Made by a program: the position numbers and the translations under genes
Notes under the pieces: model-generated
What the model was told of the DNA's origin: nothing
The model's database searches: none
Seen by the model: the letters and a program-made list of their open reading frames with translations, nothing else
Assembly (NCBI GenBank): GCA_026705925.1
Contig: JAPOZT010000019.1
Span: 49,878 to 113,877, forward strand
DNA length: 64,000 nt
DNA from: Gemmatimonadota bacterium
GTDB lineage: Bacteria > JAAXHH01
Reading direction: 5' to 3'
Shown: piece after piece, positions 7,704-54,058 of the stretch
How the letters are laid out: every line of letters begins with the position of its first letter
Numbering within the stretch: the stretch's first letter is position 1

Positions 7704-7723
7704 CGGTTTGTTGCCTTGCCCGT

Positions 7724-8050: not shown

Positions 8051-8086
8051 TTTCGTCTAGCGGTCCTCCCATTGACCTCTGTTTGT

Positions 8087-18614: not shown

Positions 18615-19697
18615 ATGATCGGTCAGACCAGCTTGGCGTCGCTGCCCTCGCTGCGCGTTTACGACAGCCGCCGGATTTCCAGCTGGAATACTTCAGGTGA
18701 AAACGCCGATTTCTGGCGCATCGAAGCCGGCGAGAAACGGGTCATCGGCGAGATCAACGAACCGGGATGCATCAAGCATCTGTGGATGACGCTGGGGCTG
18801 CCGGCCGAGGACTACTGCCGCCGCATCGTGCTGCGCATGTACTGGGACGGCAGCGCGGAACCGAGCGTGGAGTGCCCCATCGGTGATTTCTTCGGCCTCG
18901 GCCACGGCATGCGCAAGGACTTCATCACCGCCCCGCTGCAGATGAGCCCGCAGGACGGCAAGGGGTTCAATTCCTGGTGGCCCATGCCCTTCAGGGACAA
19001 GGCCGTGATCGAAGTGGAGAACCAGGGGACCGAGGGATACAACCACTATTTCTACATCGATTACGAGACGTATCCCACGGCCGAAGCGGTGGCCGATCAG
19101 GCGTATTTTCACACGCAGTGGCGGCGGGAAGCCAACACCCGGGGATGGGCCTACGAGGAAGGACTCAAGCCGGAAGCCTACCGGAACGACCCGCGCTGGG
19201 CAAACTTAAGCGAGCGGGAAAACTACGTCATCTGCGACGTCGAAGGAAACGGCGTCTACTGCGGCGCCCACCTGGACATCGACTGCTTCCAGCGGAATCC
19301 GAACGACTGGTACGGCGAGGGAGACGACATGATGTTCATCGACGGCGAGGCGTGGCCGCCGTCGCTGCACGGGACCGGCACCGAGGACTGGTACCATTGC
19401 GCCTACTGCCCGACCGACGAGTACAACGCGCCCTATCACGGCATCATCCTCTACAGCGGCAACGACGAGTGGCGGTGGAAGGGCAAGAACACGGTCTACC
19501 GCTACCACATCGAAGATCCGATCCGGTTTCGAAAGAGCTTCCACATCTCCATCGAGCACGGTCACGCGAACAAGCTGAGCAACGATTACTCAAGCACGGC
19601 GTACTACTACCTCTCCGAACCGCGGCACGGCGGACCGGCCCTGCTGCCAGTCGAGGACCGGATTCCGCGTCCGGACGAACCGCACTACGGAGAGTGA
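18615..19697 (+). CDS. DUF2961-like protein (glycoside hydrolase family 172-like), copy 1
   Basis: 360 aa, RISSWNTSGEN...GPGCIKHLWMT... No signal peptide. Family assignment from memory, moderate. Confidence 0.5.
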   Translation: MIGQTSLASLPSLRVYDSRRISSWNTSGENADFWRIEAGEKRVIGEINEPGCIKHLWMTLGLPAEDYCRRIVLRMYWDGSAEPSVECPIGDFFGLGHGMRKDFITAPLQMSPQDGKGFNSWWPMPFRDKAVIEVENQGTEGYNHYFYIDYETYPTAEAVADQAYFHTQWRREANTRGWAYEEGLKPEAYRNDPRWANLSERENYVICDVEGNGVYCGAHLDIDCFQRNPNDWYGEGDDMMFIDGEAWPPSLHGTGTEDWYHCAYCPTDEYNAPYHGIILYSGNDEWRWKGKNTVYRYHIEDPIRFRKSFHISIEHGHANKLSNDYSSTAYYYLSEPRHGGPALLPVEDRIPRPDEPHYGE

Positions 19698-19735
19698 CGG
19701 GCGGACCACGTCCACAAACCTGCAAGGGAGGATCC

Positions 19736-20815
19736 ATGATCGGTCAGACCAGCCTGGCGTCGCTGCCCACGCTGCGCACGTACAGGAGCCACCGGATTTC
19801 GAGCTGGGACACGACGGGCGCCAACACCGACGCCTGGCGGATCGAGGCCGGTGAGAAACGCGTCATCGGGCAAATCGACGGCCCCGGCTGCATCAAGCAT
19901 ATCTGGATGACGCTCGGGATCCCGTCCGAGGACTACTGCCGGCGCATCGTGCTGCGCATGTACTGGGACGGCTGCGCGGAGCCGAGCGTGGAGTGTCCCA
20001 TCGGCGATTTCTTCGGCCTGGGTCACGGCATGCGCAAGGATTTCATCACCGCCCCACTGCAGATGAGCCCCCAGGACGGCAAGGGTTTCAATGCGTGGTG
20101 GCCCATGCCATTCAGTGAAAAGGCCGTGGTGGAAGTGGAAAACCAGGGCGACGAAGGCTACTTCCACTACTTCTACATCGACTGCGAAGCCTATCCCACC
20201 GTTGACGCGGTGGCGGATCAGGCGTATCTTCACGTACAGTGGCGCCGGGAAGCCGACACGAAGGGCTGGGCCTTCGAGGAAGGGCTCAAACCCGAAGAAT
20301 ACCGGAACGACCCGCGCTGGCTGAATACGAGCGACCGGGACAACTACGTCATCTGCGACGTCGAGGGTGACGGCATCTACTGCGGCGCCCACCTGGACAT
20401 CGACTGCTTTCAGCGGAACCCGAACGACTGGTACGGCGAAGGCGACGACATGATGTTCATCGACGGCGAGGCGTGGCCCCCGTCGCTGCACGGCACGGGT
20501 ACCGAGGACTGGTATCACGGCGCGTACGGCCCTACGACGGAGTTTCAGGCGCCGTACCACGGGATCATTCTCTACAGCGGCAACCCGGACTGGAGATTCA
20601 AGGGAAAGAACACCGTCTACCGGTATCACATTGAAGATCCAATCCGGTTTGAGAAGAGTTTCCGCATGTCCATCGAGCACGGCCATGCGAACAAGCTGAG
20701 CAACGATTACTCCAGCACGGCCTACTACTATCTTTCCGAGCCACGGCGCGGCGGTCCGGCCCTGCTGCCGGTGGAAGAACGCCTACCGCGGCCGAACGAG
20801 GAGCGGTACGGCTGA
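19736..20815 (+). CDS. DUF2961-like protein, copy 2 (tandem paralog, about 85% aa identity to copy 1)
   Basis: Same N-terminus MIGQTSLASLP and same RBS context (gaRggatccATG) as copy 1. The ORF-track long ORF 18977-20815 is an out-of-frame run-through of copy 1. Confidence 0.5.
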   Translation: MIGQTSLASLPTLRTYRSHRISSWDTTGANTDAWRIEAGEKRVIGQIDGPGCIKHIWMTLGIPSEDYCRRIVLRMYWDGCAEPSVECPIGDFFGLGHGMRKDFITAPLQMSPQDGKGFNAWWPMPFSEKAVVEVENQGDEGYFHYFYIDCEAYPTVDAVADQAYLHVQWRREADTKGWAFEEGLKPEEYRNDPRWLNTSDRDNYVICDVEGDGIYCGAHLDIDCFQRNPNDWYGEGDDMMFIDGEAWPPSLHGTGTEDWYHGAYGPTTEFQAPYHGIILYSGNPDWRFKGKNTVYRYHIEDPIRFEKSFRMSIEHGHANKLSNDYSSTAYYYLSEPRRGGPALLPVEERLPRPNEERYG

Positions 20816-27369: not shown

Positions 27370-29772
27370 TTGCTGAAACACTACTTCACGATCAGTGCGA
27401 GGCATCTGCTCAGGCACAAACCCTATGCCGCGCTCAATATCCTTAACCTGGCCGTCGGCATGGCCTGTGCGGTCCTCATCGGCCTGTATATACAAGACGA
27501 ACGGGCCTATGACCGGTACCATGCGAACGCGGAACGGATCTACCGCATCGTGAACGGGACCAATGCGAAGACGACCCCCGCCCTCGGTCCCGCCATCCAT
27601 GAACTCCTTCCTGAAGTCCAGTCATACGCCCGCATAAGTCCGCCCTTCGGAGGGTGGATCATACGCTATGAAGACCAATCGTACTTCGAAGACCGCGTGT
27701 TCTGGGCGGATCCCGATCTCTTCGAGGTTTTCTCCTTTCCACTGGTGCGGGGCAATCCCGCACAGGCGCTGCAGGATCCGGGGACGGTCGTCATCACCGA
27801 GTCCATGGCGCGCAAGTACTTCGGAAGCGCCGACCCCCTCGGCGAGACGGTATCGCTGGATACGTATCCCTTCACCGTCACCGGGGTGATGCGGGATATG
27901 CCCGAGCACTCGCATTTCCAGGCTGACTTTTTCCTCGGGATCGAGGGGTCGCTCGGTATCCTGGGAGATGATTACCTGGAGCAGTGGGATTGGCCTTCGT
28001 TTTATACCTACCTTTTGCTGTCACCGGATGTAGATCCCGTCGACTTCGCGCGGAAAATGCCGGATGTGCTCGAAGAAAGGTTTGGCGCCCGGTGGGAAGC
28101 CGAGAACATCACGATGGACCTCCGGCTGCAGCCGCTGACCGACATCTACCTTTACTCCCAACTCGAGAACGAGGCCGGCGAGAACGGCAACGGCACGTAC
28201 CTGCTGCTCCTCGGCGCCCTGGCCGTCGTCATCGTCCTGCTGGCCTGTTTCAACTTCATGAACATGGCGACCGCCCGCTCTCTCACGCGTAACCGCGAGG
28301 TCGCGCTTCGGAAGGCCTTCGGCGCGAACCGGGGTCAGCTGGTCCGCCAGTTCATGGGCGAATCCTTCGGCATCACCTGCGTCGCCATCGTGACCGCGCT
28401 GATCCTCGTCGCGCTCAGTCTGCCGTTCTTCCAGGACCTCACCGGAAAGACCATCGCGCTCGACATCTTTAGGTCCTGGCAGTTCTGGATGGGCATCGCC
28501 GCGGTAACCCTCCTGGTGGGGTTCGTTTCCGGCAGCTATCCCGCGTTTTTCACGGCGGCCTTCACGCCGGCAGCACACCTGAAGGGCAGGACCGGAACCG
28601 GCGCAACCCGCCACCTGGTACGCAGGCTGCTGGTCATGGGCCAGTGCATGATGGTAATCCTGCTGCTCGGCAGCACCTGGGTATTCACCGCGCAGCTGGA
28701 CTACATACAGGCCAAACGGCTGGGCCTGCAGCCGGAACGAGTGCTCGTCGGACCCTCCAGTTTCCCGGCCTTCGTGGATCAGTATCCGGTTTTCAGGGAA
28801 ACACTCGAGCAGTATCCCCGGATCGAAAGCGTCGGTACCACCCTGATGCTGCCTGGCCGCACGGGGCGCAAGGGTTTGCTCGCCACGACGGGGACGCGGC
28901 GGACCGACCGGCCGCAGACGGAAGCGCAGAACCTGCTCGACTGGGCGATCACCGACGATTTCGTCGAAGTATTCGGGATGGAGCTGCTGGCCGGCCGGAG
29001 TCTTTCCAGTTCGCGTCTGGCGGATCGGAGGGAAGCCGTGATGATCAACGAAACCGCCATGCGGCAGCTGGGATGGAACGCGCCCGAAGAGGCCATCGAT
29101 CAGGAGGTCCTGATCCACATCGGCCATCCCTGGGTACACGATCGCCGGATCATCGGCGTGATCGCGGATTTCCACATGCGGTCGCTGCACCATCGCATCG
29201 AGCCGATGATCATCCGGCATTGGCCCAGGGAGAACTTGCCCTTCTACGCGATCCGCATCCGATCCGATGACGTGACCGGCACGGTCTCATGGATCCAGGA
29301 AACCTGGAAGCGACAGATGCCGGACGTTCCCATGGTGTATTCGTTTCTCGATGAGGATTACGGGCGGCTCTACGCGGCCGAGGCGACGCTCCGCGAGGTC
29401 TTCGGCGTTTTCTCGTCCGTGGCGGTCTTCATGGCCTGCGCCGGGCTGTTCGGCCTGGCCTCATTCATGTCGGCGCGGCGTACGAGGGAAGTAGGCATGC
29501 GGAGGATTCTCGGGGCCTCAGTCGTCCAGACGGCGGGTCTGCTTCTGAGGGAATTCGTCTACCTGGTCCTGATCGCTACGGTACTGGCCGCGCCCATCGC
29601 CTACTTCGCCATGCGGCAGTGGCTTCAACTGTTCTCCTACCGTGCGGACGTCGGTCCCGTAGCCTTCTTCGCCGCTGGCGCGGTCGTCCTGGTCATCGCC
29701 CTGATGACGGTGAGTCTCCGTGTCGTCGGCGTGGCCCGGGCGAACCCGGTGGACACGCTGAGGTATGAGTAG
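27370..29772 (+). CDS. FtsX-family (MacB-type, two FtsX domains) ABC transporter permease, 800 aa
   Basis: N-terminal TM, large periplasmic domain, four TM, repeated. Characteristic FtsX loop motifs. No ATPase gene adjacent. Confidence 0.75.
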   Translation: MLKHYFTISARHLLRHKPYAALNILNLAVGMACAVLIGLYIQDERAYDRYHANAERIYRIVNGTNAKTTPALGPAIHELLPEVQSYARISPPFGGWIIRYEDQSYFEDRVFWADPDLFEVFSFPLVRGNPAQALQDPGTVVITESMARKYFGSADPLGETVSLDTYPFTVTGVMRDMPEHSHFQADFFLGIEGSLGILGDDYLEQWDWPSFYTYLLLSPDVDPVDFARKMPDVLEERFGARWEAENITMDLRLQPLTDIYLYSQLENEAGENGNGTYLLLLGALAVVIVLLACFNFMNMATARSLTRNREVALRKAFGANRGQLVRQFMGESFGITCVAIVTALILVALSLPFFQDLTGKTIALDIFRSWQFWMGIAAVTLLVGFVSGSYPAFFTAAFTPAAHLKGRTGTGATRHLVRRLLVMGQCMMVILLLGSTWVFTAQLDYIQAKRLGLQPERVLVGPSSFPAFVDQYPVFRETLEQYPRIESVGTTLMLPGRTGRKGLLATTGTRRTDRPQTEAQNLLDWAITDDFVEVFGMELLAGRSLSSSRLADRREAVMINETAMRQLGWNAPEEAIDQEVLIHIGHPWVHDRRIIGVIADFHMRSLHHRIEPMIIRHWPRENLPFYAIRIRSDDVTGTVSWIQETWKRQMPDVPMVYSFLDEDYGRLYAAEATLREVFGVFSSVAVFMACAGLFGLASFMSARRTREVGMRRILGASVVQTAGLLLREFVYLVLIATVLAAPIAYFAMRQWLQLFSYRADVGPVAFFAAGAVVLVIALMTVSLRVVGVARANPVDTLRYE

Positions 29773-31711: not shown

Positions 31712-34114
31712 TCACCCGGTACGCAACGCGTCGACTGGATTGGCCGTGGCGGCCTTCAACGCGTGGTATCCCACCGTCAACCAGGTAACAAGTAGCGTTG
31801 CAAGGCCGGCAAACACGAAAACCCACAGGCTCAGTTCGATACGATAGGGAAAGTTTTCCAGCCACGTCTGCACACCGAAGAAACCTGCCGGAGCGCCGAT
31901 CACGAATGCGAGCAGGACCAGCTTAGTGTAGTCCCCGGACAACAGCAGTATGACGTTCGAAATCGTAGCGCCGAGGACCTTGCGTACGCCGATTTCCCTG
32001 GTCCGCTGCTCCGCCATGTAGGCTGCCAGTCCCAGAAGTCCCAGGCACGCGATCAGAATGGAAAGCACCGCGCCGGCGACGAAGACGGATCCCAGCCTTT
32101 GCTCGGCATCGTACTGTCGCTCGAGTTCCTGGTCCAGGAAGTAGAAATCCATGCCGGGATGGCTTTGATACGTTGTCCGCCACCGGTCCTGTAGGATTTC
32201 AAGTCCGCGGGGCAGGTCCTGTCCCTGCAGCCTGACCACCATAAACCTGCCTTCTGGCCAGTACATTACGATCAAGGGCTCAATGCGTTGATGCAGCGAT
32301 TGGTGGTGATAATCCGCCATCAGGCCGATGACGTTCCTGGATGGAGCAGTATCTGGTGCGCCCGGCTGCCTGAAGGTCTTTCCGATCGGGTCTTTCCATC
32401 CAAAAGTGCGTGCGGCAGTTTCGTTGATCACGACGGCGTCGTTGTCGGAGGTGAAAGTCCGCGAAAACGAACGGCCGGACTTGATCTCGATGTCCAGTGT
32501 TTCCAGGAAGTCGAAGTCCGCCCAGATCGTGGCGACCAAAGGCGTCTGATCCTCCGGGAATCCTTCTGGTTGAATCGAATTGAGCGAGGGTGCCGTCCCG
32601 GGTACGCTGGCCGATGAACTCACGTTTAAGATTTCCGGATACTGCATGACCTCGCGCTTGAATACCGGATAACCAAGCACAGCCTCTCTATCGGGAAGTC
32701 GTATGACTACCACGTGTTCTTTATCGAATCCCAGCTTCTTGTTCCGCATGTACTCCACCTGCCCGAGCACGGTAGCCGTTCCGATAATCACGACAATCGA
32801 GACGATGAACTGGAAGGTGATCAGCGCTATTCGCAGAAAGGACAGGGAGCCCCCCGCTTTCAACTCGCCACTCAGTACGGCAACCGGCCTGAAGGACGAA
32901 AGGACGAGTGCGGGATATCCGCCGGCAGCGATTCCCGTAAAAAGGATTATCGCCCCGAGGGTCGGCACCAGCCATGTTGACTGATAGTCCATTTCCAGCG
33001 CTTTACCGGACAACTGGTTGAACTGCGGCAGGAGCAGGTGGACCAGTGCGAGTGCGACGATCAGCGCGATCAGGGAAAAGAAGACCGACTCTCCGATAAA
33101 CTGCTTGATCAGCTGGACCCGGTGGGCACCCAGTACTTTCCGGATGCCGACCTCCTGCGCCCTTCTGACGGCACGGGCGGTGGCCAGGTTCATGAAGTTG
33201 ACGCAGGCAATCAGCAAGATGAAAGCGGCCAGGGAGGAGAAGATGTAAACATACCGTACGTCGCTGTTCGCTTCGATCTCGAGCTTCAGATGGGAGTGCA
33301 GATGTATGTCGGTGAGCGACTGCAGGAACGGTCTCATTTCCATGCCCAGTGCCTTCAGTTGCTCACCCACATGTCTATCCAGAAACTGAGGGAGTTTCTT
33401 CTCCAGATCTTCGGCGGCACGTCCTTCCTTGAGCAGAAGATACGTGTACATGGAGGAGTTCAGGTTCCTCATCGTGGTCGGCTCGAAGTATATGCCATCC
33501 ACCGCCATGGTGGCGAAGGAGGCCAGGAAGTCGGCGTGGAAATGCGAATTTGCAGGCATGTCCCGCATGATCCCCGTAACCGTAAAGTTATACTGGTCGT
33601 CAGCAGCGATGACTTTTCCAATCGGATTTTCATCTCCGAAATACTTCTCCACCATCGCTTCCGAAACCACCACGGCGTGCGGTTCCGCCAGGGCTGTCTT
33701 TGGATTTCCCTGAACAAGGGGGATAGTGAAAATGTCAAAGACCGACGAATCCGCGAAGACGAAATACTTCTCATAGGACCGATTATCGCCGTAGCGAACG
33801 AGCCAACCGGTGTTCGGCGGCTTTATCCGCGTGTAGTGTTCGATTTCAGGGAATTCCGACGCCAGTACAGGGGCCCAGGACGGAGGCGACATCGCCCATT
33901 CATCCGGTTTGCCACCCGCCATCTCGGAGATCGCCAGGCGATAAATCCGTTCCTTCTTCTCGTGGTGCTGGTCGTAGCTGAGTTCGTCCTGCACATAGAG
34001 CATGATCAACACGCAGGAGGCTATACCGATAGCCAATCCAAGCACGTTGATCGCCGAATAGCCTCTGTACTGGAGCAGATGCCTTATGGCGGTGTTCAGG
34101 TAGTTTCTGAACAT
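31712..34114 (-). CDS. FtsX-family (MacB-type) ABC transporter permease, 800 aa, paralog of 27370-29772
   Basis: Same architecture and N-terminus (MFRNYLNTAIRHLLQYRGYSAIN versus MLKHYFTISARHLLRHKPYAALN). Confidence 0.75.
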   Translation of the reverse strand: MFRNYLNTAIRHLLQYRGYSAINVLGLAIGIASCVLIMLYVQDELSYDQHHEKKERIYRLAISEMAGGKPDEWAMSPPSWAPVLASEFPEIEHYTRIKPPNTGWLVRYGDNRSYEKYFVFADSSVFDIFTIPLVQGNPKTALAEPHAVVVSEAMVEKYFGDENPIGKVIAADDQYNFTVTGIMRDMPANSHFHADFLASFATMAVDGIYFEPTTMRNLNSSMYTYLLLKEGRAAEDLEKKLPQFLDRHVGEQLKALGMEMRPFLQSLTDIHLHSHLKLEIEANSDVRYVYIFSSLAAFILLIACVNFMNLATARAVRRAQEVGIRKVLGAHRVQLIKQFIGESVFFSLIALIVALALVHLLLPQFNQLSGKALEMDYQSTWLVPTLGAIILFTGIAAGGYPALVLSSFRPVAVLSGELKAGGSLSFLRIALITFQFIVSIVVIIGTATVLGQVEYMRNKKLGFDKEHVVVIRLPDREAVLGYPVFKREVMQYPEILNVSSSASVPGTAPSLNSIQPEGFPEDQTPLVATIWADFDFLETLDIEIKSGRSFSRTFTSDNDAVVINETAARTFGWKDPIGKTFRQPGAPDTAPSRNVIGLMADYHHQSLHQRIEPLIVMYWPEGRFMVVRLQGQDLPRGLEILQDRWRTTYQSHPGMDFYFLDQELERQYDAEQRLGSVFVAGAVLSILIACLGLLGLAAYMAEQRTREIGVRKVLGATISNVILLLSGDYTKLVLLAFVIGAPAGFFGVQTWLENFPYRIELSLWVFVFAGLATLLVTWLTVGYHALKAATANPVDALRTG

Positions 34115-38397: not shown

Positions 38398-38610
38398 TCA
38401 CTGCTCAAGATTCGTAATCTTCTCTTCAACAAACACCTGCTCAATCGGCATATCAAATAACCTGGAGATCTTGAAGGCCAGGGACAGGCTCGGGTCATAC
38501 TTGCCTTTCTCAATGGCATTCACTGTCTGCCTCGAGACTTTCAAACGATCCGCCAATTCGGCCTGGGTCCAGTCCCTTTCGGCGCGCAATACCTTCAGAC
38601 GGTTTCTCAT
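38398..38610 (-). CDS. XRE-family HTH transcriptional regulator (70 aa), cassette 1
   Basis: MRNRLKVLRAERDWTQAELADRLKVSRQTVNAIEKGKYDPSLSLAFKISRLF, Cro/C1-type HTH. Confidence 0.8.
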   Translation of the reverse strand: MRNRLKVLRAERDWTQAELADRLKVSRQTVNAIEKGKYDPSLSLAFKISRLFDMPIEQVFVEEKITNLEQ

Positions 38611-39005
38611 CGGTACTTCCTACCGGCGACGAGTTGCCCCATACTCCAAAGCAGAATCATGACAAAGCCAACCCACATCGTGTTGAAGGAAGGAAATCCC
38701 ACGTTTTCCAGCAACCCGTAGCTCAAACAGAAAATCAGGGTGGCAATGTACGCGATCACAACCGCTTCAAGATGTAAGTGCCTGAGCATTTCATCCATAC
38801 GCCGAACGAAACGAACCACGGCCAGCATCATGAACACGAAGGGGATCACCGGCGCCACCGTAACCGGGATCCGCCAGGGTGAATCGAGGTTCTCTCTCAG
38901 AAACATCAGCGACGCTACCTGTACGACTACATAGGCCAGCATGGAGCCGCCGAATTCCAGCAAATAACGTATTGTAGTTTGTCTCATCGTGTGCTGCCTC
39001 CTCAC
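38607..39005 (-). CDS. small polytopic membrane protein partnered with XRE regulator, cassette 1
   Basis: ATGA overlap with downstream HTH gene. Four hydrophobic helices. TTGACA-type promoter upstream. Confidence 0.55.
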   Translation of the reverse strand: MRRQHTMRQTTIRYLLEFGGSMLAYVVVQVASLMFLRENLDSPWRIPVTVAPVIPFVFMMLAVVRFVRRMDEMLRHLHLEAVVIAYIATLIFCLSYGLLENVGFPSFNTMWVGFVMILLWSMGQLVAGRKYR

Positions 39006-39212
39006 TCGAAGATTGAATTTGTAATGTACTGAAGTAATCGCCGTGTCGAGTTATTATGACATAATGTAAATATATATAATCATTTTGTCAAGTTTTATAT
39101 ACATTATTTACAGGGTGATCCCTACTTCCTAATACTGTACTTTAGGCTGAAGTGCGATTTTCCGGTCTAAATCTGTCTGTATGGCTTTCACCGAAGCTAC
39201 CTGGGGTAAACC

Positions 39213-39905
39213 GTGAACATCACCGCAATCTCCTTCGACGTCGACCAGACCCTGATCGACACAGACCTGGTCATCATGCGATCCATGGAATCCGTTCGTG
39301 AGGAACTGATAAAGCGCGTACCGGGCGAGCGATCCCAGAGCCTGACGGTTGAGCAGATGTGGTCTATTCGTGACCGGGAAGAGAAAGATTACGTGGGAAA
39401 GGTAAGAGACTTCGACGAGATACGGCGGAGGTCCTTCCTCAGGATGCTTGATCATGTCGGATACGCGGGTCCCGATCTGTCGGCGCGTCTCAACGAAGTA
39501 TATCTGAAACACCGGTACAACGACATCAGACCTTACGAGGACGTCGTGCCCATGCTCGATGCCCTTGCCCTGCGTTTCAAACTCGGGCTGCTGTCGAATG
39601 GCAACAACTATCCGGAGTACTTCGGGCTCGCTGACCGTTTTGACTTCGCCGTCTACGCCCAGGATATCGAAATCGAGAAACCGGATCCGAGGGCGTTTCA
39701 GATCGCGGTGGAACGGGCGGGTTGTAGCCAGAACCAACTGCTACACGTGGGAGATTCGCTGGAAACGGACGTCGAAGGCGCACAGGCGGTTGGTGTGCGT
39801 GCGGTATGGTTGAATCGCAATGGCGCATTCAATGATACGGGAATAGAACCCGATTATCAAATCGCTACATTGACCGACCTCCCTGCCCTGTTAAGTCTGG
39901 ATTGA
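39213..39905 (+). CDS. HAD-superfamily hydrolase, copy 2
   Basis: SFDVDQTL motif I, GDSLETD motif IV. Confidence 0.7.
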   Translation: MNITAISFDVDQTLIDTDLVIMRSMESVREELIKRVPGERSQSLTVEQMWSIRDREEKDYVGKVRDFDEIRRRSFLRMLDHVGYAGPDLSARLNEVYLKHRYNDIRPYEDVVPMLDALALRFKLGLLSNGNNYPEYFGLADRFDFAVYAQDIEIEKPDPRAFQIAVERAGCSQNQLLHVGDSLETDVEGAQAVGVRAVWLNRNGAFNDTGIEPDYQIATLTDLPALLSLD

Positions 39906-48040: not shown

Positions 48041-48100
48041 CGTGCGACCAGATTCCTCCTCGCAGACGAATCCTGATTTGTGATCCCCGGTTGGACCTTG

Positions 48101-48787
48101 ATGACTACAACGTTGTTCTTCGATATCGGTGAAACCATCCTGGACGCCGGACCACAGATGGACGCGTTGATGGAAGTGCATCGAAACGCCCTGGAGGACT
48201 TCGGCTTTTCCATATCGCAGGACGAATACCGGCAGCTGGATGATGCGATGATAAGGTCCTTCGTGCCCAGTGCGATGCATGCGATTACGTGGCATTTTGC
48301 GAAATCGGATAAAGGCCTGCACGACGACATTACCCGCAAGATACGTTCGCATTATGATGAGATCAGGCAGATTGAAATCAGACTCAATCCCGGCGTAGAT
48401 AGGCTACTGGAAAAGTTGGCCGACGCTTATACGCTTGGTCTTGCCGGAAACGCGCCCGCATCGGTTCGAGAACTTCTGGAGGAACTTGGCATATTACACC
48501 GGTTCACCCACACCGACGTATCCGGGAGTATCGGAGTAAAGAAACCGGATCAACGCTTCTTTGAGACCATCCTCGCGAATGCGGACACGAAGGCGTCCGA
48601 AGCAATCATGATCGGAGACCGGCTCGACAACGACATCATACCGGCCAGGCGAATCGGCATGAAAACGATATGGTTACGATGGGGGCGTTATCGTATGATG
48701 GAACCTCGCACACCGGATGAGGCTCCTGATACGACCGTGGCCGATGTGCGCGAAGTTTCGGACGCGGTAAACTCGCTAGCTAGCTGA
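48101..48787 (+). CDS. HAD-superfamily hydrolase, copy 4
   Basis: FFDIGETI, IGDRLDND. Confidence 0.65.
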   Translation: MTTTLFFDIGETILDAGPQMDALMEVHRNALEDFGFSISQDEYRQLDDAMIRSFVPSAMHAITWHFAKSDKGLHDDITRKIRSHYDEIRQIEIRLNPGVDRLLEKLADAYTLGLAGNAPASVRELLEELGILHRFTHTDVSGSIGVKKPDQRFFETILANADTKASEAIMIGDRLDNDIIPARRIGMKTIWLRWGRYRMMEPRTPDEAPDTTVADVREVSDAVNSLAS

Positions 48788-48858: not shown

Positions 48859-49671
48859 ATGCGTTCCCATCCGCCTACTCCGAATAGCCTTCCCGATCCC
48901 GTCCGTGATCGCCTGAGGGGATACAAGTCTGACGGCCGCAATCAGAGGACCGAATCCTGTTCGGACGTCTTCCTCTATACGCACCCCTTGAAGAGCGGCC
49001 TGATCCTGAAGACACGAGACGTCCGATTGAGGCTGCAGGAACCGGACCTGCTGGCGGAGACCGTGGCCCTGACCTGGTTGCAAGACAAACTGCCCGTACC
49101 CGAGTACCGGTGTTTTCACGTGGAAGGCGATATCCAGTACCTGCTCATGACGCAGTTGGAAGGCGTAACAGGGATACATCCGGACGTGACCGGCGATCCT
49201 GCGCATCTCGTGGCGGAATTCGCACGGGGCCTGCGCGAAATACACGCACAGGACATCGGATCCTGTCCCATGGATTGGCGCATGTCGCGGTTCTTTCAAT
49301 GGGCGGAGGACCTGATCGACGGTGGTGTGTTTGACGATCGGATCCCGGCAGGCGGTACCAGAGACGGTCTAAGGGAAGAACTCGACGCGATCAAAACCGC
49401 TCTGCCCGAGGAGGAAGACCTGGTCTTCACACACGGCGACTACTGCCTGCCCAACGTCCTGTTCAAGGACGGCGAACTGACCGGATTCATAGACCTTGGT
49501 TACGCGGGTGTCGGCGACAGGTACCTGGATTTCGTGTCCGCGACCTGGACGATACAGAGAAACCTGGGCGAGGAGTGGATCTCCCGGTTTTTCCACGCCT
49601 ATGGCCTCGAGCATCCCGATCGGGAGAAAATGAAGACCTGGCAGAGCGTGTTCGAGTTTGTTTTTCGATAG
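48859..49671 (+). CDS. APH(3')-type aminoglycoside phosphotransferase family protein
   Basis: VFTHGDYCLPNVLF catalytic loop and GFIDLGYAGVGDRYLDF motif match APH(3') signatures. Whether it confers resistance is not inferable. Confidence 0.7.
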   Translation: MRSHPPTPNSLPDPVRDRLRGYKSDGRNQRTESCSDVFLYTHPLKSGLILKTRDVRLRLQEPDLLAETVALTWLQDKLPVPEYRCFHVEGDIQYLLMTQLEGVTGIHPDVTGDPAHLVAEFARGLREIHAQDIGSCPMDWRMSRFFQWAEDLIDGGVFDDRIPAGGTRDGLREELDAIKTALPEEEDLVFTHGDYCLPNVLFKDGELTGFIDLGYAGVGDRYLDFVSATWTIQRNLGEEWISRFFHAYGLEHPDREKMKTWQSVFEFVFR

Positions 49672-49707
49672 GAAATTGGCACGCACACGACACCACGACG
49701 GGAGACG

Positions 49708-50532
49708 ATGTACGTGAATATACCCCACGCCCAGGTCGAAGCCCTTCTTCGCGAAGCCACCGAGCAAATCGTCATGCCGTTCTGGAGGAATCTGGGTCGA
49801 GACGACATCACCGAGAAGAGTGCGGGCGATGTGACCACGTCGGCCGATACCCGGTGCGAGGCTTTCCTGACATCTCAACTACCCGGTTTAATCGAAGACT
49901 CGCTGGTCCTGGGCGAGGAGAGCGTCCATGACGATCCCGGTCTGTTGGCCGCGCTCCAGACGGATGCGCCTGTCTGGGTAATCGATCCCCTGGATGGCAC
50001 AAAGTACTTCGCGGCAGGCCAACCGGAGTTTGCTATCATGGTTTGCCTCATTCAGTCGGGCTTGACGATAGGAGCGTGGATACTCAACCCGATAGACGGC
50101 CAGTTGACGAGTGCGGAACGGGGGTGCGGGGCCTTCCAGGGAGACAGGCCCCTGACCGTTGACCCATCCTCCGTTCCCCTGGATCGTATGCGCGGCGTGG
50201 TGGCGACATGGTACCTGCCTGATTCCTTGCGACCCACCGCCGAAGCGGTACTGGGTTCCTTCCTGTACATCGAACGTACCCGGTGCGCCGGCTATAACTA
50301 TCCTTCCTTCGCAAAGAACGAACTGCACTTCCTGTTCTTCTATCGCACCCTGGTCTGGGATCACGCGCCGGGCGCGTTGATCGCGCAAGAGGCCGGCGGT
50401 TTCGTGCGCAGACTGGATGGGAGGGAGTATTCGCCGGTGGATGACCGCAAGGGGCTGCTGTGTGCCAACAACCCGGAAACGTGGAAATCGGTACAGCGGA
50501 CGCTGGTGCCGTCAGTATCGGTAGTCGGTTAG
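49708..50532 (+). CDS. inositol monophosphatase family protein
   Basis: WVIDPLDGT metal-binding motif, LGEES upstream motif. Confidence 0.75.
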   Translation: MYVNIPHAQVEALLREATEQIVMPFWRNLGRDDITEKSAGDVTTSADTRCEAFLTSQLPGLIEDSLVLGEESVHDDPGLLAALQTDAPVWVIDPLDGTKYFAAGQPEFAIMVCLIQSGLTIGAWILNPIDGQLTSAERGCGAFQGDRPLTVDPSSVPLDRMRGVVATWYLPDSLRPTAEAVLGSFLYIERTRCAGYNYPSFAKNELHFLFFYRTLVWDHAPGALIAQEAGGFVRRLDGREYSPVDDRKGLLCANNPETWKSVQRTLVPSVSVVG

Positions 50533-50669
50533 GCTCCGCGTAAGGCTCTGCTACGACTTTAGGTGCCGGACAAATACTGATGTCAAAAATTCTTGACACG
50601 CCAGTTAATGTCTAGTATTTTTTACACCATGTCAAGTATATCAGTCATATGATCCGCATTGGGAGACGC

Positions 50670-51089
50670 ATGAACATGTCCTTCGAAGAGAAGAGTGTCT
50701 GGGTTGAATTCGTCAGTTACTTCATCGGCCTGGGCGGCTACCTGATTGTCGCCGGCCGCATGCTGTCAAACGGTGTCAGTGCCTTGCCACCCTACGTGCC
50801 GGTCTTCGCCGTGGCGGTCGTCTTCATCGTGGCTGTAAATATCGTAGGACACATCGTCGCGGCAGCCACCAGCCGGTCGGACGAGGTCGACGAGCGTGAT
50901 CGGCTCATCGGCTGGCGCGCGGAAAGCGGGTCGTCGTGGATCCTGGGCTTCGGCGTCATCGGCGCGATCACTGCGCTGATCTTTTCGGTCGGCAGCGTCT
51001 GGGTGGCTCACCTGCTTCTCATCTCGTTGTTCGTATCCGAAGTGACGAAGAACGTGTTGCAGATCGTCTACTACCGCCGGGGGATCTGA
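50670..51089 (+). CDS. small polytopic membrane protein partnered with XRE regulator, cassette 2
   Basis: GGGAG 4 nt upstream of ATG. TGTCAAaaattcTTGACA inverted repeat / -35 box upstream. Paralogous in layout to 38607-39005. Confidence 0.55.
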   Translation: MNMSFEEKSVWVEFVSYFIGLGGYLIVAGRMLSNGVSALPPYVPVFAVAVVFIVAVNIVGHIVAAATSRSDEVDERDRLIGWRAESGSSWILGFGVIGAITALIFSVGSVWVAHLLLISLFVSEVTKNVLQIVYYRRGI

Positions 51090-51091
51090 AC

Positions 51092-51331
51092 GTGGCTAGA
51101 TCGAGAGTGAGCATCCGCAACCAGATCCGGATCCTGCGGTTCCGCCACGGCGAGATGACGCAGCAGCAACTCGCCGACCAGGTCGGTGTCACCCGGCAGA
51201 CGGTCAACGCGATCGAGGGCGGCAAATACTCGCCGTCGCTCGAAGTCGCGTTCCGGATAGCCCACGTATTCGGGGAGCCGCTCGAAGAAGTGTTTCAGTT
51301 CGTCGATGCAGAGCCCGGGCGTCGCGGATAG
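51092..51331 (+). CDS. XRE-family HTH regulator, cassette 2 (GTG start 2 nt after partner stop)
   Basis: ...IRNQIRILRFRHGEMTQQQLADQVGVTRQTVNAIEGGKYSPSLEVAFRIAHVF aligns with 38398-38610 product. Confidence 0.7.
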   Translation: MARSRVSIRNQIRILRFRHGEMTQQQLADQVGVTRQTVNAIEGGKYSPSLEVAFRIAHVFGEPLEEVFQFVDAEPGRRG

Positions 51332-51342
51332 GCGCAAATAAT

Positions 51343-51519
51343 CACGGACCAGGCGTCCTGATTGCGCAGGAGGCGGGCGGTTTCGTGCGAAGGTTGGACG
51401 GCACCGAGTACACCCCTGTGGATGACCGCAAGGGGCTGCTGTGTGCCAACAATCCGGAGATGTGGAAGTCGGTGCAGCGGACGCTGGTGCCGTCCGTCGA
51501 GATCGACGGCAAAATCTAG
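51343..51519 (+). pseudogene. 3' fragment duplicate of the inositol monophosphatase gene (last about 58 codons)
   Basis: About 85% nt identity to 50356-50532, translating to HGPGVLIAQEAGGFVRRLDGTEYTPVDDRKGLLCANNPEMWKSVQRTLVPSV.... Forms direct repeats flanking cassette 2. Confidence 0.75.
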
Positions 51520-51636
51520 CACCTACTCTTCTGTGGAGTTCATGGATAACGTGGCCCCGCGACTTCCACGGGGCCACGCCTGGCCGCGAAATGCCGGTTC
51601 ACGATGCGAGGCGCCACTTCACCTCGAGACGTCCTT

Positions 51637-52431
51637 TTACCTCGTGGTCTGGAACGGTCGAACTGTTCCGGAGAAAGGTAACGGCGGATCAAGTCGCCAA
51701 ACCCGGGATACAGCCGCAATTCTGGCCAGTTTTGCATACGCTCCGTCAATCGAATCGTATTCGGCTTCAAACCGGTCAATGGTACCGGACGTTTCACCAG
51801 GATGTTCTCCCATAGATTCGGAGTGCGACGTATTCCCGGTGGATGCGTCATACACCAGTGAAAGGTTGAATAACACCGGTTTGCCTTCCGATTTGCCGTC
51901 ACTGGCGAAGATGACCGCCGGCAGTACGGGAACGATACCGACGTTTCCGTATACAGACGCAAATTCAGCCGGCGTTACGGAACTCCGGGGCCGGATGATG
52001 AATCGACTGCCATACCGATCGACACAGAGCAGCGCTTCCTCGGGGGATCGAATGCCCAGCCTGCCGGGAATCGCGATACCGAACCGGTAGGTAATAACAT
52101 CCTTCTCATAGTCCGACGCCGGATCCCCCTCGAACTCCAGTTCCGTCCCGGGACCCGCAGGGAACTGGACGACGCGAGAACGATCATAGACCGGGTCGTT
52201 TACGACCGGAGGGTGGTTAGGACCGTGGTGCACGGGCCGGACCAGGGACATCGCATTGAAGACGGCCGGTGCCGGCTTCCAATGCAGCGCCGGCTGCACC
52301 TGCTGCGCCGGCTTCGTCGACTGCTTCACCTGCGGTGACGTCGTGGAATCCGAGAATCCGATCCAGGCGACCACGAACGTGACCGCGAGTAAAGGAACCA
52401 GAAAGTAGGAAACCAGGGTTGACCGTGACAT
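51637..52431 (-). CDS. hypothetical protein with N-terminal signal-anchor/TM
   Basis: 264-aa ORF. Hydrophobic N-terminus (LVSYFLVPLLAVTFVVAWIGF). Confidence 0.45.
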   Translation of the reverse strand: MSRSTLVSYFLVPLLAVTFVVAWIGFSDSTTSPQVKQSTKPAQQVQPALHWKPAPAVFNAMSLVRPVHHGPNHPPVVNDPVYDRSRVVQFPAGPGTELEFEGDPASDYEKDVITYRFGIAIPGRLGIRSPEEALLCVDRYGSRFIIRPRSSVTPAEFASVYGNVGIVPVLPAVIFASDGKSEGKPVLFNLSLVYDASTGNTSHSESMGEHPGETSGTIDRFEAEYDSIDGAYAKLARIAAVSRVWRLDPPLPFSGTVRPFQTTR

Positions 52432-52834: not shown

Positions 52835-54058
52835 TCAGGAATTGGAAATCTGCGGCGGCCGCAATCCGGTGTATCTGGCCCGCGGCCGGATGAGCTGGTC
52901 CCTTTCGTACTGTTCGATCGCGTGTCCGATCCAGCCGGCCGTGCGGCCGAGGGCGAACAGGGCCATGGCGCTGCCTTCGGGCATATTCAGGACGCGCACC
53001 AGCGCCGTGAGGGCCAGGTCGATGTTGTAACGGTCCGGGACCAGACGATGGGTTGTTTCGATGATTTCCCGCGCGAGTAGCAGGTCCTTCGATCCCGGAA
53101 ACCGATCTTCCAGCTTGCGCAACAGCAGGCTTGCCCGCGGGTCCACGTCGCGATAGACGGCGTGGCCGAACCCGGGGATCTTCTCACCGATCCGCAACCG
53201 ATTGGCGATCGCCCGTTCAACGCTGCCGATCGATTCCGCCTCTTGAAACAGCGCTTCGACCCGCTCGCTGGCCGCGCCGTGTTTATAGCCGCGCAGTGCG
53301 GCGAGACCCGCGCAGACCGCACTGTAGGGCGTCGTTCCCGCCGATGCGGCGCATCGCACCGTAAAGGTCGATACATTCAATTCGTGATCCGCGAACAGCA
53401 CCAGGGTCGTATTGATCAGCTCCGCCGCGCCTTCAATGTCCGGCGCCCAGGCCCTTCGCAAGGCCTGGGCGATCCCACCCATCGGGTCTTCGCCCGTGGC
53501 CACACCCGTCATGAACCAGAGAATCCGCATGCCCGTGGCGGCGACCGTGTCCCGCCGCAGGTCCAGTGCGGCCAGGTCATCCGCCTCGGCCAGGGGAAGC
53601 AGCGTCTGGAAGCGTTCGACGGGTTTGAGGTTGTTCAATTTCAACCAGCTTTCGCGGTAGTCTCTCTGATAGGTGTTCGAGAAAATGGGAAAGGAGAATC
53701 GCTTGTCATTGGTCCAGATCAGGGCCGCAACGCGCTCGAACGATTCGTTTGCCGCCAGGATCGTCGCGTCCCGGCCCCGGTAGAACAGCCGCTCGTCCGT
53801 GATCAACGTAATCGCCGATTCCAGGATAGGATCCCCCGTGTACAGGGCTCGTTTTACCGCCCAACCCGGATTCCGGCGGGATCTCTTGCGGGCTTTCAAC
53901 CGCTCGATGTCTTCACTGCGATACAACCGCTTCCGTCTGCCGTCGCCGCTTTCTTCGGACCGGATCATGCCGCGGCTAACATACGCATAGAGCGTAGATG
54001 GACTGACATTCAGCGCGGAAGCCGCTTCGGTGGATGTCATGTATCTTCTGCTGTTCAC
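52835..54058 (-). CDS. HTH (MerR/excisionase-type) fused to citrate-synthase-like domain
   Basis: N-terminal MTSTEAASALNVSPSTLYAYVSRG HTH. Citrate-synthase motifs ADHELNVSTFT, YKHGAASE (His), GFGHAVYRDVDPRA (His), GRTAGWIGHAIEQ. Confidence 0.7.
   Translation of the reverse strand: MNSRRYMTSTEAASALNVSPSTLYAYVSRGMIRSEESGDGRRKRLYRSEDIERLKARKRSRRNPGWAVKRALYTGDPILESAITLITDERLFYRGRDATILAANESFERVAALIWTNDKRFSFPIFSNTYQRDYRESWLKLNNLKPVERFQTLLPLAEADDLAALDLRRDTVAATGMRILWFMTGVATGEDPMGGIAQALRRAWAPDIEGAAELINTTLVLFADHELNVSTFTVRCAASAGTTPYSAVCAGLAALRGYKHGAASERVEALFQEAESIGSVERAIANRLRIGEKIPGFGHAVYRDVDPRASLLLRKLEDRFPGSKDLLLAREIIETTHRLVPDRYNIDLALTALVRVLNMPEGSAMALFALGRTAGWIGHAIEQYERDQLIRPRARYTGLRPPQISNS

What the first reader, a model, noticed from the sequence alone, without database searches (positions are those of the whole stretch)
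50356..51519. Membrane-protein + XRE-regulator cassette flanked by a ~175-bp duplication of the inositol-monophosphatase 3' end; a paralogous cassette at 38398-39005
The last about 58 codons of the IMPase gene (50356-50532) recur at 51343-51519 at about 85% nt identity, with a different C-terminal tail and its own stop codon. Between the copies lie only a TGTCAAaaattcTTGACA inverted repeat/-35 region, a 4-TM membrane protein and a 79-aa XRE HTH regulator starting 2 nt after the partner stop. A second cassette of the same composition (membrane protein ATGA-coupled to an XRE HTH) sits at 38398-39005 in the opposite orientation in another low-GC islet. The pattern looks like a tiny mobile or recombining cassette that targets or carries a gene 3' end, as integrative elements do with tRNA 3' ends, but no integrase is present.
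Basis: seen in the sequence. Interest (0 to 1): 0.7.

Follow-up and report, generated by a model that had tools for sequence, protein, structure and literature searches.

The report
Recombination scar beside an imported two-gene cassette
A small horizontally shared operon (membrane protein plus XRE repressor) sits between an intact inositol-monophosphatase gene and a leftover copy of that gene's last 175 bases; the leftover is most likely the scar of a one-sided, illegitimate recombination between two alternative versions of a variable locus, and there is no sign of a self-mobile element that targets gene ends.

Summary
Bases 50360-50516 recur at 51341-51497 at 83% identity, in frame, with a separate tail and stop. 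Only a promoter/operator, a 139-aa four-helix membrane protein and a 79-aa XRE regulator lie between the copies.

Related sponge- and coral-symbiont genomes show three layouts:
- B, without the cassette: IMPase | hyp264 | citrate synthase.
- A, with the cassette and no duplication: IMPase | cassette | citrate synthase.
- The stacked layout seen in this window.

The downstream fragment continues into the B-type sequence. The in-gene 3' end belongs to the A allele class. The 12 bases at the junction are the A-type 3' flank of citrate synthase, joined to IMPase position -175 through a 7-nt microhomology. The two copies differ mostly at synonymous sites (dN/dS 0.06), so they diverged as working alleles and not by decay in place.

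A third lineage carries the same cassette next to a 48-nt IMPase remnant, so the insertion point is not fixed. I found no integrase, terminal repeats or att core.

The cassette is 83-92% identical in nucleotides across MAGs labelled Latescibacterota/Gemmatimonadota, Bacteroidetes and Gammaproteobacteria.

In the "paralogous" cassette only the regulator is related (52%). That cassette keeps its position in relatives.

Verdict: an ordinary recombination scar. Interest is low to moderate.

The parts
49708..50532 (+). Intact inositol-monophosphatase-family gene (274 aa). Its 5' half and the neighbouring APH 3' end are closer to relative L004 (92-97%) than to L003 (85-92%).
   Evidence: PF00459 E 1.7e-37; sliding identity
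50359..50532 (+). Copy 1: the in-gene last 57 codons plus stop. It is allele class A: PGALIAQ, DGREY, tail VSVVG*, followed by GCTCCGC as in L004, L009 and L010.
50533..50578 (+). Spacer between the IMPase stop and the cassette promoter. The first 7 nt are the class-A downstream sequence. 50545-50562 resembles the left flank of the cassette in L021.
50581..50621 (+). Promoter/operator. Palindrome TGTCAA-N6-TTGACA (50581-50598), -35 TTGACA (50593-50598), -10 TATTTT (50616-50621). Further ATGTCAA-like half-sites lie downstream. The region is conserved in cassette copies from the other MAG groups.
50670..51089 (+). Membrane protein, 139 aa, four long helices (an alternative upstream ATG lies at 50649). 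It has a conserved DERD motif, no Pfam family above threshold, and weak DUF2178 hits on some homologues.
51092..51331 (+). XRE/HTH_3 regulator, 79 aa, GTG start 2 nt after the membrane gene's stop.
51332..51351 (+). Junction spacer GCGCAAATAATCACGGACCA, shared with L004. Its last 12 nt correspond to the native 3' flank of citrate synthase in layout-A genomes (L004, L009, L028). It contains the microhomology (G)AYCACG with IMPase.
51352..51519 (+). Copy 2: the displaced class-B IMPase 3' fragment (the reading frame runs from 51340; tail VEIDGKI*). It is continuous with the downstream DNA of cassette-free relative L003.
51551..51577 (.). Conserved GC-rich hairpin GTGGCCCCG-N9-CGGGGCCAC between the IMPase end and the hyp264 end. 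It is present at the same place in cassette-free relatives.
51637..52431 (-). hyp264, a 264-aa protein of unknown function. It is the accessory gene of layout B and is absent from layout-A genomes L004 and L028.
52835..54058 (-). Citrate-synthase-like gene, the conserved right anchor of the variable interval. It is 93-96% identical in nucleotides to L003 and 69-82% to L004.
38398..39130 (-). Second, analogous operon: AT-rich promoter with TTGACA/TGTCAT motifs, membrane protein (38607-38987, 126 aa) overlapping by ATGA the XRE (38398-38610, 70 aa). Not part of the scar; a syntenic resident in relatives.

Best explanation
The IMPase-citrate synthase interval is a variable spot in a recombining group of sponge- and coral-associated bacteria. 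Their MAGs are labelled Latescibacterota or Gemmatimonadota. Two alternative fillings exist. Layout A is IMPase | membrane-protein/XRE operon | citrate synthase. Layout B is IMPase | hyp264 | citrate synthase.

The window carries a stacked recombinant made of an A-type left arm and a B-type right arm. The left arm holds the APH 3' part, a complete A-type IMPase, the cassette, and the last 12 nt of the A-type citrate-synthase flank. The right arm holds the last 168-175 nt of the B-type IMPase, the hairpin, hyp264 and citrate synthase.

The two arms are joined by an illegitimate crossover at a 7-nt microhomology (GACCACG). The other crossover was ordinary homologous recombination in a conserved flank. 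This is homology-facilitated illegitimate recombination. The IMPase fragment is therefore a non-functional scar, and neither an attachment site nor part of a mobile element.

Which arm was the incoming DNA is not resolved. Either the cassette came in with an A-type IMPase, or hyp264 came in with a piece of B-type IMPase.

The cassette itself is a self-contained operon. By inference, the XRE protein represses its own TTGACA promoter through the TGTCAA-N6-TTGACA operator. The role of the membrane protein is unknown. My guess is a signal-sensing or anti-repressor partner, or the effector of a stress or addiction-like module.

Shown: the anatomy, the empty and donor-type layouts, the allele classes, the junction sequence, the synonymous divergence, and the near-identical copies in MAGs labelled as different phyla. 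Inferred: the recombination pathway, its direction, and all function.
For: 1. Layout B without the cassette exists in L003, L005, L007 and L008. Window 51343-51699 aligns continuously with L003 6676-7013, which covers the gene end, the hairpin and the hyp264 end.
2. Layout A without any duplication exists in L028 (IMPase, 88 nt, cassette, 65 nt, citrate synthase). L004 has it too, with an extra 407-aa gene and a deleted membrane gene.
3. The junction reads ...GCGCAAATAATCACGGACCA|GGCGTCCTG. L004 has ...GACGCAAGTGACCACGGACCA|TCA, where TCA is the citrate-synthase stop. The motif CCACGGAC(A/C)(A/G) immediately before that stop is also native to L009 (cassette-free) and L028. The B-type IMPase reads GGGACCACGCGCCG|GGCGTCCTG at that position.
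4. Copy 1 has the tail and first 7 downstream nt of the L004/L009/L010 allele class. Copy 2 has the tail of the L003/L007/L008 class.
5. Copy 1 against copy 2 gives dN 0.057 and dS 0.91 (ratio 0.06). Their 18% nucleotide divergence exceeds that of either copy to L003 (12-13%). They therefore diverged as functional alleles in separate lineages.
6. Mosaic arms: window 49270-49870 is 92-97% identical to L004 and 85-92% to L003. Citrate synthase is 93-96% identical to L003 and 69-82% to L004.
7. A second, different junction exists. In L020-L022 the cassette is followed by a 48-nt IMPase remnant (SVQRTLVLSVEIIETI*), then the same hairpin and a hyp264 homologue, while the in-gene tail there is of the L006 class.
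8. The structure is present in three independent assemblies that differ by 1-10% in the flanks: the window, L001 on a 3.8-Mb contig, and L002.
9. Precedent: displaced 3' ends and orphan genes left by one-sided recombination in Vibrio cholerae T6SS and Rhs loci (PMC5361080).
Against: - Textbook homology-facilitated illegitimate recombination usually deletes recipient DNA. A duplication is what a single crossover with a circular molecule produces (PMC3240628).
- Two independent junctions both fall inside the last 175 nt of IMPase. I explain this by selection to keep hyp264 and its hairpin intact, but that is an argument and not a test.
- No genome with exactly the inferred A-type parent was found, that is, tail VSVVG*, the 46-nt spacer, the cassette, then citrate synthase.
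- The left crossover is not mapped, and identity to L004 falls to 79-88% in the IMPase 3' half.
- Some other copies of the cassette family are also flanked by direct repeats: 59-92 nt in L044/L072, and 16-24 nt in the Rhodothermales MAGs and in L035. This hints that duplication on insertion may be more regular than a chance scar.
Confidence: 0.68

Rival explanations
1. Campbell-type integration. A circular DNA of about 981 bp carried the A-type IMPase 3' end, the spacer and the cassette. It integrated by a single homologous crossover in the IMPase 3' end and so duplicated the homologous segment. Recombination between the two copies could excise it again and leave an intact, in-frame IMPase, because the offset of 981 is 3 x 327.
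For: A flanking direct duplication of the homologous segment is the expected product of a single crossover with a circle (PMC3240628). The two copies do exchange sequence. Window copy 1 differs from L001/L002 copy 1 in a cluster of positions where it carries L003-like states, and L001 copy 2 carries copy-1 states at several positions. Other family members have flanking direct repeats.
Against: Copy 1 is class A along its whole length, and copy 2 is class B from base 12 to its end. The crossover would therefore have to lie in the first ~10 nt of a 175-nt stretch that is only 82% identical. The L004-like tract extends about 1 kb to the left of the repeat, which a 981-bp circle does not explain. 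The first 12 nt of copy 2 are citrate-synthase flank and not IMPase.
Confidence: 0.14
2. A tiny integrative cassette is inserted by a recombinase supplied in trans. It targets the IMPase 3' end and brings a replacement 3' end, as tRNA-targeting islands do.
For: The layout matches that of such islands: an element-borne 3' end restores the gene, and the native 3' end is displaced. The cassette lies next to an IMPase remnant in two lineages. It is shared between MAGs labelled as different phyla.
Against: There is no integrase in or beside the cassette. No repeated core is present at the two ends beyond a 7-nt microhomology. The junction positions differ, at -175 and -48. L028 and L004 hold the cassette at this locus without any IMPase duplication. 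Copies in the Bacteroidetes- and Gammaproteobacteria-labelled MAGs lie in unrelated sites with no IMPase sequence. No homologue was found in viral contigs, phages or plasmids.
Confidence: 0.07
3. Local tandem duplication of the IMPase 3' end or of the whole gene, followed by decay of one copy. The cassette was inserted or retained between the copies.
For: Direct repeats in tandem orientation are what a duplication leaves behind.
Against: The copies differ at dS 0.9 with dN/dS 0.06, and they are further from each other than either is from L003. Their tails belong to different allele classes that exist as single genes in different relatives. No relative has two IMPase genes here.
Confidence: 0.03
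4. An assembly chimera that joins two co-existing strains, one with layout A and one with layout B.
For: The source is probably a metagenome-assembled genome from a community with several related strains.
Against: The same junction occurs in three independent assemblies with diverged flanks, one of them on a 3.8-Mb contig. The sequence shared at the junction is only 7 nt, too short to mislead an assembler.
Confidence: 0.01

Closest known systems
Homology-facilitated illegitimate recombination (HFIR), with displaced 3' ends or orphan modules as in Vibrio cholerae T6SS effector-immunity arrays and Rhs/CDI loci (PMC5361080; the primary HFIR work of de Vries & Wackernagel 2002, Prudhomme et al. 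2002 and Meier & Wackernagel 2003 is cited there)
   Same: A conserved gene acts as the homologous anchor. The other end joins at a short GC-rich microhomology. New genes are added without loss of the old downstream gene. A truncated, displaced 3' end of the anchor gene is left downstream. Alternative fillings of one locus exist in related strains.
   Different: The anchor here is a housekeeping-type phosphatase and not a polymorphic toxin. The inserted module is a regulator plus a membrane protein and not an effector-immunity pair. Only one displaced fragment is present and not an array. The process is inferred from comparative sequence and was not observed.
Integrative elements that target the 3' end of tRNA or protein genes and carry a replacement 3' end (own knowledge)
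   Same: The gene is kept intact by an incoming 3' end. The native 3' end is displaced to the far side of the insert. The result is a direct repeat.
   Different: There is no integrase, no identical att core and no fixed insertion point. The insert is under 1 kb. The foreign tract continues upstream of the repeat.
[quoted passage not shown]
   Same: The gene order is membrane protein then a short XRE-type HTH, with tight coupling (2-nt gap or ATGA overlap). The leader is AT-rich and has an inverted repeat over the -35 box. Both cassettes in the window fit this architecture.
   Different: Neither membrane protein matches DUF2975. The first shows only weak DUF2178 hints through homologues, and the second has no family. 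The HTH proteins score best with HTH_3 rather than HTH_26. No experimental function is known for any of these.
Mobile insertion cassettes and MITE-like passenger elements (own knowledge)
   Same: A small unit that carries passenger genes without a transposase and is found in several genomes.
   Different: There are no terminal inverted repeats and no fixed-length target duplication. The 30-bp inverted repeats beside the gammaproteobacterial copies are palindromic REP-like hairpins absent from the other copies, so I take them to be host sequence.

Membership tests
Gene-3'-end-targeting integrative element (integrase-mediated) | Integrase or recombinase gene inside or next to the element | tested here: not met
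   Only a membrane protein and an XRE HTH lie between the repeats. The neighbours are APH, IMPase, hyp264 and citrate synthase.
Gene-3'-end-targeting integrative element (integrase-mediated) | Identical core (att) sequence at both junctions | tested here: not met
   The left boundary of the repeat shows only a 7-nt microhomology, and the copies are 83% identical with no exact core at the ends.
Gene-3'-end-targeting integrative element (integrase-mediated) | Same insertion point in independent insertions | tested here: not met
   The junction is at IMPase -175 in the window, L001 and L002, and at -48 in L020-L022. L028 and L004 have no IMPase duplication.
Gene-3'-end-targeting integrative element (integrase-mediated) | Incoming DNA restores the 3' end of the target gene | tested here: met
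   The in-gene 3' end is of a different allele class from the displaced fragment.
Homology-facilitated illegitimate recombination product | One junction at a short microhomology between otherwise unrelated sequences | tested here: met
   Layout-A citrate-synthase flank GTGACCACGGACCA against B-type IMPase GGGACCACGCGCCG: 7 consecutive matches, 10 of 14 in all.
Homology-facilitated illegitimate recombination product | The other crossover lies in homologous flanking sequence, giving a mosaic of parental types | tested here: inconclusive
   The left arm is closer to L004 and the right arm closer to L003. The exact crossover and the true parents are not identified, and the whole region is mosaic.
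Homology-facilitated illegitimate recombination product | Both parental layouts exist | tested here: met
   Layout B is found in L003, L005, L007 and L008. Layout A is found in L028 and L004.
Homology-facilitated illegitimate recombination product | Demonstrated dependence on DNA uptake and RecA | not testable with these tools
   The organisms are uncultivated, so only comparative sequence is available.
Transposon, MITE or mobile insertion cassette | Terminal inverted repeats and a fixed-length target-site duplication | tested here: not met
   No inverted repeats occur at the cassette ends in the window. Cassette similarity between contexts begins at the promoter and ends at the XRE stop. Where flanking repeats exist, their length ranges from 16 to 175 nt.
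Integron gene cassette | attC recombination site at the 3' end and an intI/attI platform nearby | tested here: not met
   The repeat search found no imperfect palindrome after the XRE stop, and no integrase ORF lies in the surrounding 6 kb. No dedicated attC model was run.
Pfam DUF2178 (PF09946) | Match to the family profile above the gathering score | tested here: inconclusive
   The window protein and 18 aligned relatives have no PF09946 hit at E <= 0.1 in the current Pfam. About 20 of the 120 listed homologues carry a precomputed PF09946 hit.
YoaS-YozG-type operon (DUF2975 + Cro/C1 HTH) | Membrane protein of family DUF2975 | tested here: not met
   Neither membrane protein has a DUF2975 hit.
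YoaS-YozG-type operon (DUF2975 + Cro/C1 HTH) | Gene order membrane protein then small HTH, with an AT-rich inverted-repeat leader | tested here: met
   description of the architecture.
Type II toxin-antitoxin module with an XRE antitoxin (HigA, HipB or Y4mF type) | Antitoxin reaches the curated family score and is paired with a recognised toxin | tested here: not met
   The best hit, TIGR03070, scores 43 bits against a cut-off of 71.65. The membrane partner matches no toxin or defence model.

The most novel reading that the evidence does not exclude
The membrane-protein/XRE operon would be a recombinase-free hitch-hiking cassette that spreads between phyla in sponge microbiomes. It would insert with variable-length duplications of the target: 16-24 nt in the Rhodothermales MAGs and L035, 48 and 175 nt at IMPase, and 59-92 nt in L044/L072. 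The route could be excision as a circle by recombination between the flanking repeats, followed by short-homology Campbell re-integration using host recombination. In that case the IMPase repeat would be a working, reversible attachment device and not a dead scar. The offset of 981 nt keeps IMPase in frame after excision.
Probability: 0.1. Interest if true: 0.65.

Novelty: new member of a known kind. Interest (0 to 1): 0.3.

Why it matters
This is a clean natural example, in uncultivated sponge and coral symbionts, of how two alternative accessory fillings of one locus become stacked. The join is a one-sided homologous crossover plus a microhomology junction, and it leaves a gene-end fragment that dates and orients the event. 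Such scars can be mistaken for attachment sites of mobile elements.

The case also documents a small autoregulated operon of unknown function that is 83-92% identical in nucleotides in MAGs labelled Latescibacterota/Gemmatimonadota, Bacteroidetes and Gammaproteobacteria from sponge samples. That operon is a useful marker of recent gene flow within the sponge microbiome and a candidate for functional study.

It does not reveal a new kind of mobile element.

Tried and rejected
- Terminal inverted repeats. A perfect 30-bp inverted repeat flanks the gammaproteobacterial copies. It is a palindromic REP-like hairpin and is absent from the other copies, so I rejected it as a cassette end.
- Homology between the two membrane proteins in the window. 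BLASTP and profile-profile comparison were both negative.
- Pfam, NCBIfam and PADLOC assignment of the membrane proteins, hyp264 and the L004 407-aa ORF. Nothing was found.
- Structure. The AF2 model is a four-helix bundle with pLDDT 73. Foldseek against the PDB gave no match with E <= 0.001. The afdb50 library was unavailable.
- Vectors. The membrane protein has no relative in viral contigs, phage records or plasmid records.
- Rfam. No family reached its gathering score anywhere in the window.
- Literature. No paper mentions DUF2178.
- A general test for flanking direct repeats in 43 dereplicated contexts. Strong repeats occur only in the window group and in L044/L072. Several weak ones look like terminator or REP-like sequence.
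- An empty site for the Rhodothermales copies. MurQ homologues led to L114 and L115, which carry other DNA at that position, so the test is inconclusive.
- Direction of the recombination event. It cannot be decided, because the window is not consistently closer to L003 or to L004 outside the locus.
Full report
**1. The observation**

The direct repeat exists. Bases 50360-50516 and 51341-51497 are 83% identical over 157 nt without gaps, with an offset of 981 nt. The next-best ungapped match of this 157-mer anywhere in the window is 41%, against a background of 26 ± 3.7%.

Copy 2 stays in the IMPase reading frame from 51340 to its own stop at 51519 (…VEIDGKI*). The gene at 49708-50532 ends …VSVVG*. 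It is an inositol-monophosphatase-family gene (PF00459, E 1.7e-37).

Four features lie between the copies:
- a 46-nt spacer;
- the palindrome TGTCAA-N6-TTGACA (50581-50598), which overlaps a TTGACA-17-TATTTT promoter match;
- a membrane protein whose likely start is 50670, because all homologues are 139 aa, and whose AF2 model has four long helices;
- a 79-aa HTH_3/XRE protein that starts 2 nt after the membrane gene's stop.

**2. Relatives supply the empty site, a donor-type layout and a second junction**

A scan of one genome per species with the IMPase protein returned 11 loci. They come from sponge- or coral-associated MAGs labelled Gemmatimonadetes or Latescibacterota.
- L001 and L002 (96-98% IMPase identity) carry the same cassette and the same fragment.
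- L003, L005, L007 and L008 have IMPase followed directly by the convergent hyp264 and citrate-synthase genes. I call this layout B.
- Window 51343-51699, which covers the fragment, a conserved hairpin and the hyp264 3' end, aligns continuously with L003 6676-7013. The fragment is therefore a B-type gene end still attached to its native downstream DNA.
- L028 has IMPase, 88 nt, the cassette, 65 nt, then citrate synthase, with no duplication and no hyp264. I call this layout A. Its close relative L011 lacks the cassette.
- L004 is also layout A, with an extra 407-aa gene and a 169-nt deletion inside the membrane gene.

**3. The junction**

In the window, the XRE stop is followed by GCGCAAATAATCACGGACCA and then GGCGTCCTG…, which is IMPase sequence. 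L004 has almost the same 20 nt after its XRE stop, but they run straight into TCA, the stop codon of citrate synthase.

The motif CCACGGAC(A/C)(A/G) immediately before that stop codon is also present in L028 and in the cassette-free L009. It is therefore native citrate-synthase flank in layout-A genomes.

They resemble it (GACCACG-GACCA against GACCACG-CGCCG), and that resemblance is the microhomology at which A-type DNA was joined to the B-type IMPase 175 nt before its stop.

**4. The two copies are diverged alleles and not a gene with its decayed duplicate**

- Copy 1 carries PGALIAQ, DGREY and a short tail, followed by GCTCCGC, like L004, L009 and L010. Copy 2 carries PGVLIAQ, DGTEY and a tail two codons longer, like L003, L007 and L008.
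- Over 53 codons, dN is 0.057 and dS is 0.91.
- The copies are 82% identical to each other but 87-88% identical to L003.
- Most of their divergence therefore accumulated under purifying selection in separate lineages, which excludes a local duplication followed by decay.
- The copies have since exchanged patches. Window copy 1 carries L003-like states where L001/L002 copy 1 do not, and L001 copy 2 carries copy-1 states.

**5. Mosaic arms**

- Left of the cassette, window 49270-49870 (APH 3' end and IMPase 5' half) is 92-97% identical to L004 and 85-92% to L003.
- Right of the cassette, citrate synthase is 93-96% identical to L003 and 69-82% to L004.
- The IMPase-plus-cassette block (about 49585-51100) is 99-100% identical between the window and L001, while their flanks are about 90% identical. 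This block seems to have been exchanged recently between lineages.
- Outside the locus the window is not consistently closer to L003 or L004. I therefore cannot say which arm was the incoming DNA.

**6. A second, independent scar**

In L020-L022 the order is IMPase (L006-class tail), a HIT gene, 283 nt, the cassette, and then GTACAGCGGACCCTTGTGCTGTCTGTCGAGATAATCGAAACCATTTAG. That last stretch translates to SVQRTLVLSVEIIETI*, the last 16 codons of a B-class IMPase. The same hairpin and a hyp264 homologue follow.

The junction there lies at -48 and not at -175, and the right end of the cassette is a different variant. A fixed attachment site is thus ruled out.

Why both breakpoints fall in the IMPase 3' end is most simply explained by selection. 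Any joint that keeps hyp264 and its hairpin intact must lie just upstream of them, and that is the end of IMPase. This is an inference.

**7. Mechanism**

The simplest account is a one-sided homologous recombination with an illegitimate microhomology joint between layouts A and B. It stacks both accessory contents and leaves a gene-end fragment. The same model was proposed for orphan modules and displaced 3' ends in V. cholerae T6SS and Rhs loci (PMC5361080).

A single crossover with a circular intermediate also yields duplications (PMC3240628). It fits less well here for three reasons:
- each copy is of one allele class along its whole length;
- the first 12 nt of copy 2 are citrate-synthase flank;
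- the A-like tract extends about 1 kb to the left of the repeat.

An assembly artefact is excluded by three independent assemblies and by a shared sequence of only 7 nt at the junction.

**8. The cassette itself**

- From the promoter to the XRE stop (50580-51328) it is 83-92% identical in nucleotides across several contexts: the Latescibacterota-like lineages; MAGs labelled Bacteroidetes, where it lies between a TPR gene and a gene whose homologues are annotated as Rhodothermales MurQ; and MAGs labelled Gammaproteobacteria, where it lies between NUDIX and PhyH genes.
- Similarity starts at the operator and ends at the XRE gene. There are no terminal repeats.
- The palindrome and further ATGTCAA half-sites are conserved in these copies. 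This fits autorepression by the XRE protein, which is an inference.
- In 88 of 104 loci that hold a relative of the membrane protein, an XRE gene follows directly. Ten of the other 16 contigs end within about 80 nt of the membrane-gene match.
- The membrane protein has no assignable family or fold, and no copy was found on phage, viral or plasmid records.
- The architecture resembles the widespread YoaS-YozG operons, but the defining DUF2975 domain is absent.

**9. The second cassette (38398-39130, minus strand)**

It has the same architecture, and its XRE protein is 52% identical to the first. Its membrane protein belongs to a different, small, largely clade-restricted family. It lies next to the same HAD gene in relatives L032 and L033. 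It is a resident analogue and not a transposed copy. No repeat flanks it.

**10. What remains open**

A screen of 43 dereplicated contexts found strong flanking direct repeats only in the window group and in L044/L072, where they are 59-92 nt and cover the upstream region and start of the downstream gene.

Short repeats of 16-24 nt flank the Rhodothermales-type copies and L035. In the Rhodothermales-type copies the left and right repeats co-vary between genomes. My attempt to find an empty site for that locus was inconclusive.

These observations keep alive, at low probability, the idea that insertion of this cassette regularly duplicates its target.

**11. Verdict**

The inference of a 3'-end-targeting mini-element is not supported.

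The feature is a new instance of a known kind of recombination scar. Interest is low to moderate (0.3).

Noticed in passing
window 49585-51100 compared with L001: The IMPase-plus-cassette block is 99-100% identical between the window and L001, while the flanks on both sides are only about 77-93% identical. This suggests a recent exchange of this block between lineages.
   Followed up: partly
window 50460-50500 and 51340-51500; L001 7634-7813; L002 7633-7812: Sequence states are shared in patches between copy 1 and copy 2 within and between genomes. This looks like gene conversion or allelic recombination between the repeats. Differences among the three copy-2 fragments are mostly synonymous although the fragment should be non-functional.
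   Followed up: partly
L013 3894-3916 / 4707-4729; L024 3891-3906 / 4668-4683; L027 3894-3915 / 4707-4728: Copies of the cassette in Bacteroidetes-labelled MAGs (neighbouring gene homologous to Rhodothermales MurQ) are flanked by a 16-23-nt direct repeat (AAGCCYRTAA...). Its left and right copies resemble each other more than they resemble their counterparts in other genomes. No empty site was found.
   Followed up: partly
L044 799-857 / 1945-2003; L072 876-967 / 1916-2003: In two metagenome contigs with the same layout (apparently the same locus), a more distant relative of the cassette is flanked, together with a short lysine-rich ORF in L044, by direct repeats of 59 nt (98%) and 92 nt (82%). 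In L072 the repeats cover the upstream region and start codon of the downstream gene.
   Followed up: partly
L017 3856-3885 / 4671-4700 (also L016, L018): Gammaproteobacterial copies are bracketed by a perfect 30-bp inverted repeat. It is itself a palindromic hairpin (GGGACGGG-N-CCCGTCCC) and looks like a host REP element or terminator. The XRE stop codon lies inside the right copy.
   Followed up: partly
L004 7079-8302 (minus) and 8525-8855: A 407-aa ORF with no PADLOC match (Pfam was not run on it) lies between IMPase and the cassette. The membrane gene there has an in-frame internal deletion of about 169 nt relative to the window, while the XRE gene is intact.
   Followed up: partly
L021 2930-3029: The IMPase gene of this 3.8-Mb contig has a frameshifted C-terminus (…KGYCVLRTGKCGRLYKRG…), unlike L020 and L022. 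This is either a real pseudogenisation or a long-read homopolymer error.
   Followed up: no
L019 162-1006: One gammaproteobacterial contig has the cassette cut off right after the membrane gene. A fragment of an ABC-transporter ATPase gene on the opposite strand sits where the XRE gene should be.
   Followed up: no
window 7722-8506: A low-GC stretch holds several direct repeats: 173 nt at 86% (7878/8334), 106 nt at 74% (7722/8085), and a 27-nt periodic array at 8202-8363. It may be a repetitive protein-coding gene.
   Followed up: no
window 18596-18895 and 19717-20016: A 300-nt direct repeat at 84% identity, 1121 nt apart. It may mark tandem paralogous genes.
   Followed up: no
window 27864-29078 and 32394-33593: Three collinear inverted-repeat pairs (47-70 nt, 72-79% complementary) suggest two divergently or convergently oriented paralogous genes about 3-5 kb apart.
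   Followed up: no
window 39213-39905 and 48080-48787: Both membrane-protein/XRE operons have a HAD-family hydrolase gene nearby, one adjacent and one about 1.8 kb upstream. The HAD gene next to cassette 2 is conserved at that position in relatives. I saw no sequence link between the two cassette sites.
   Followed up: partly
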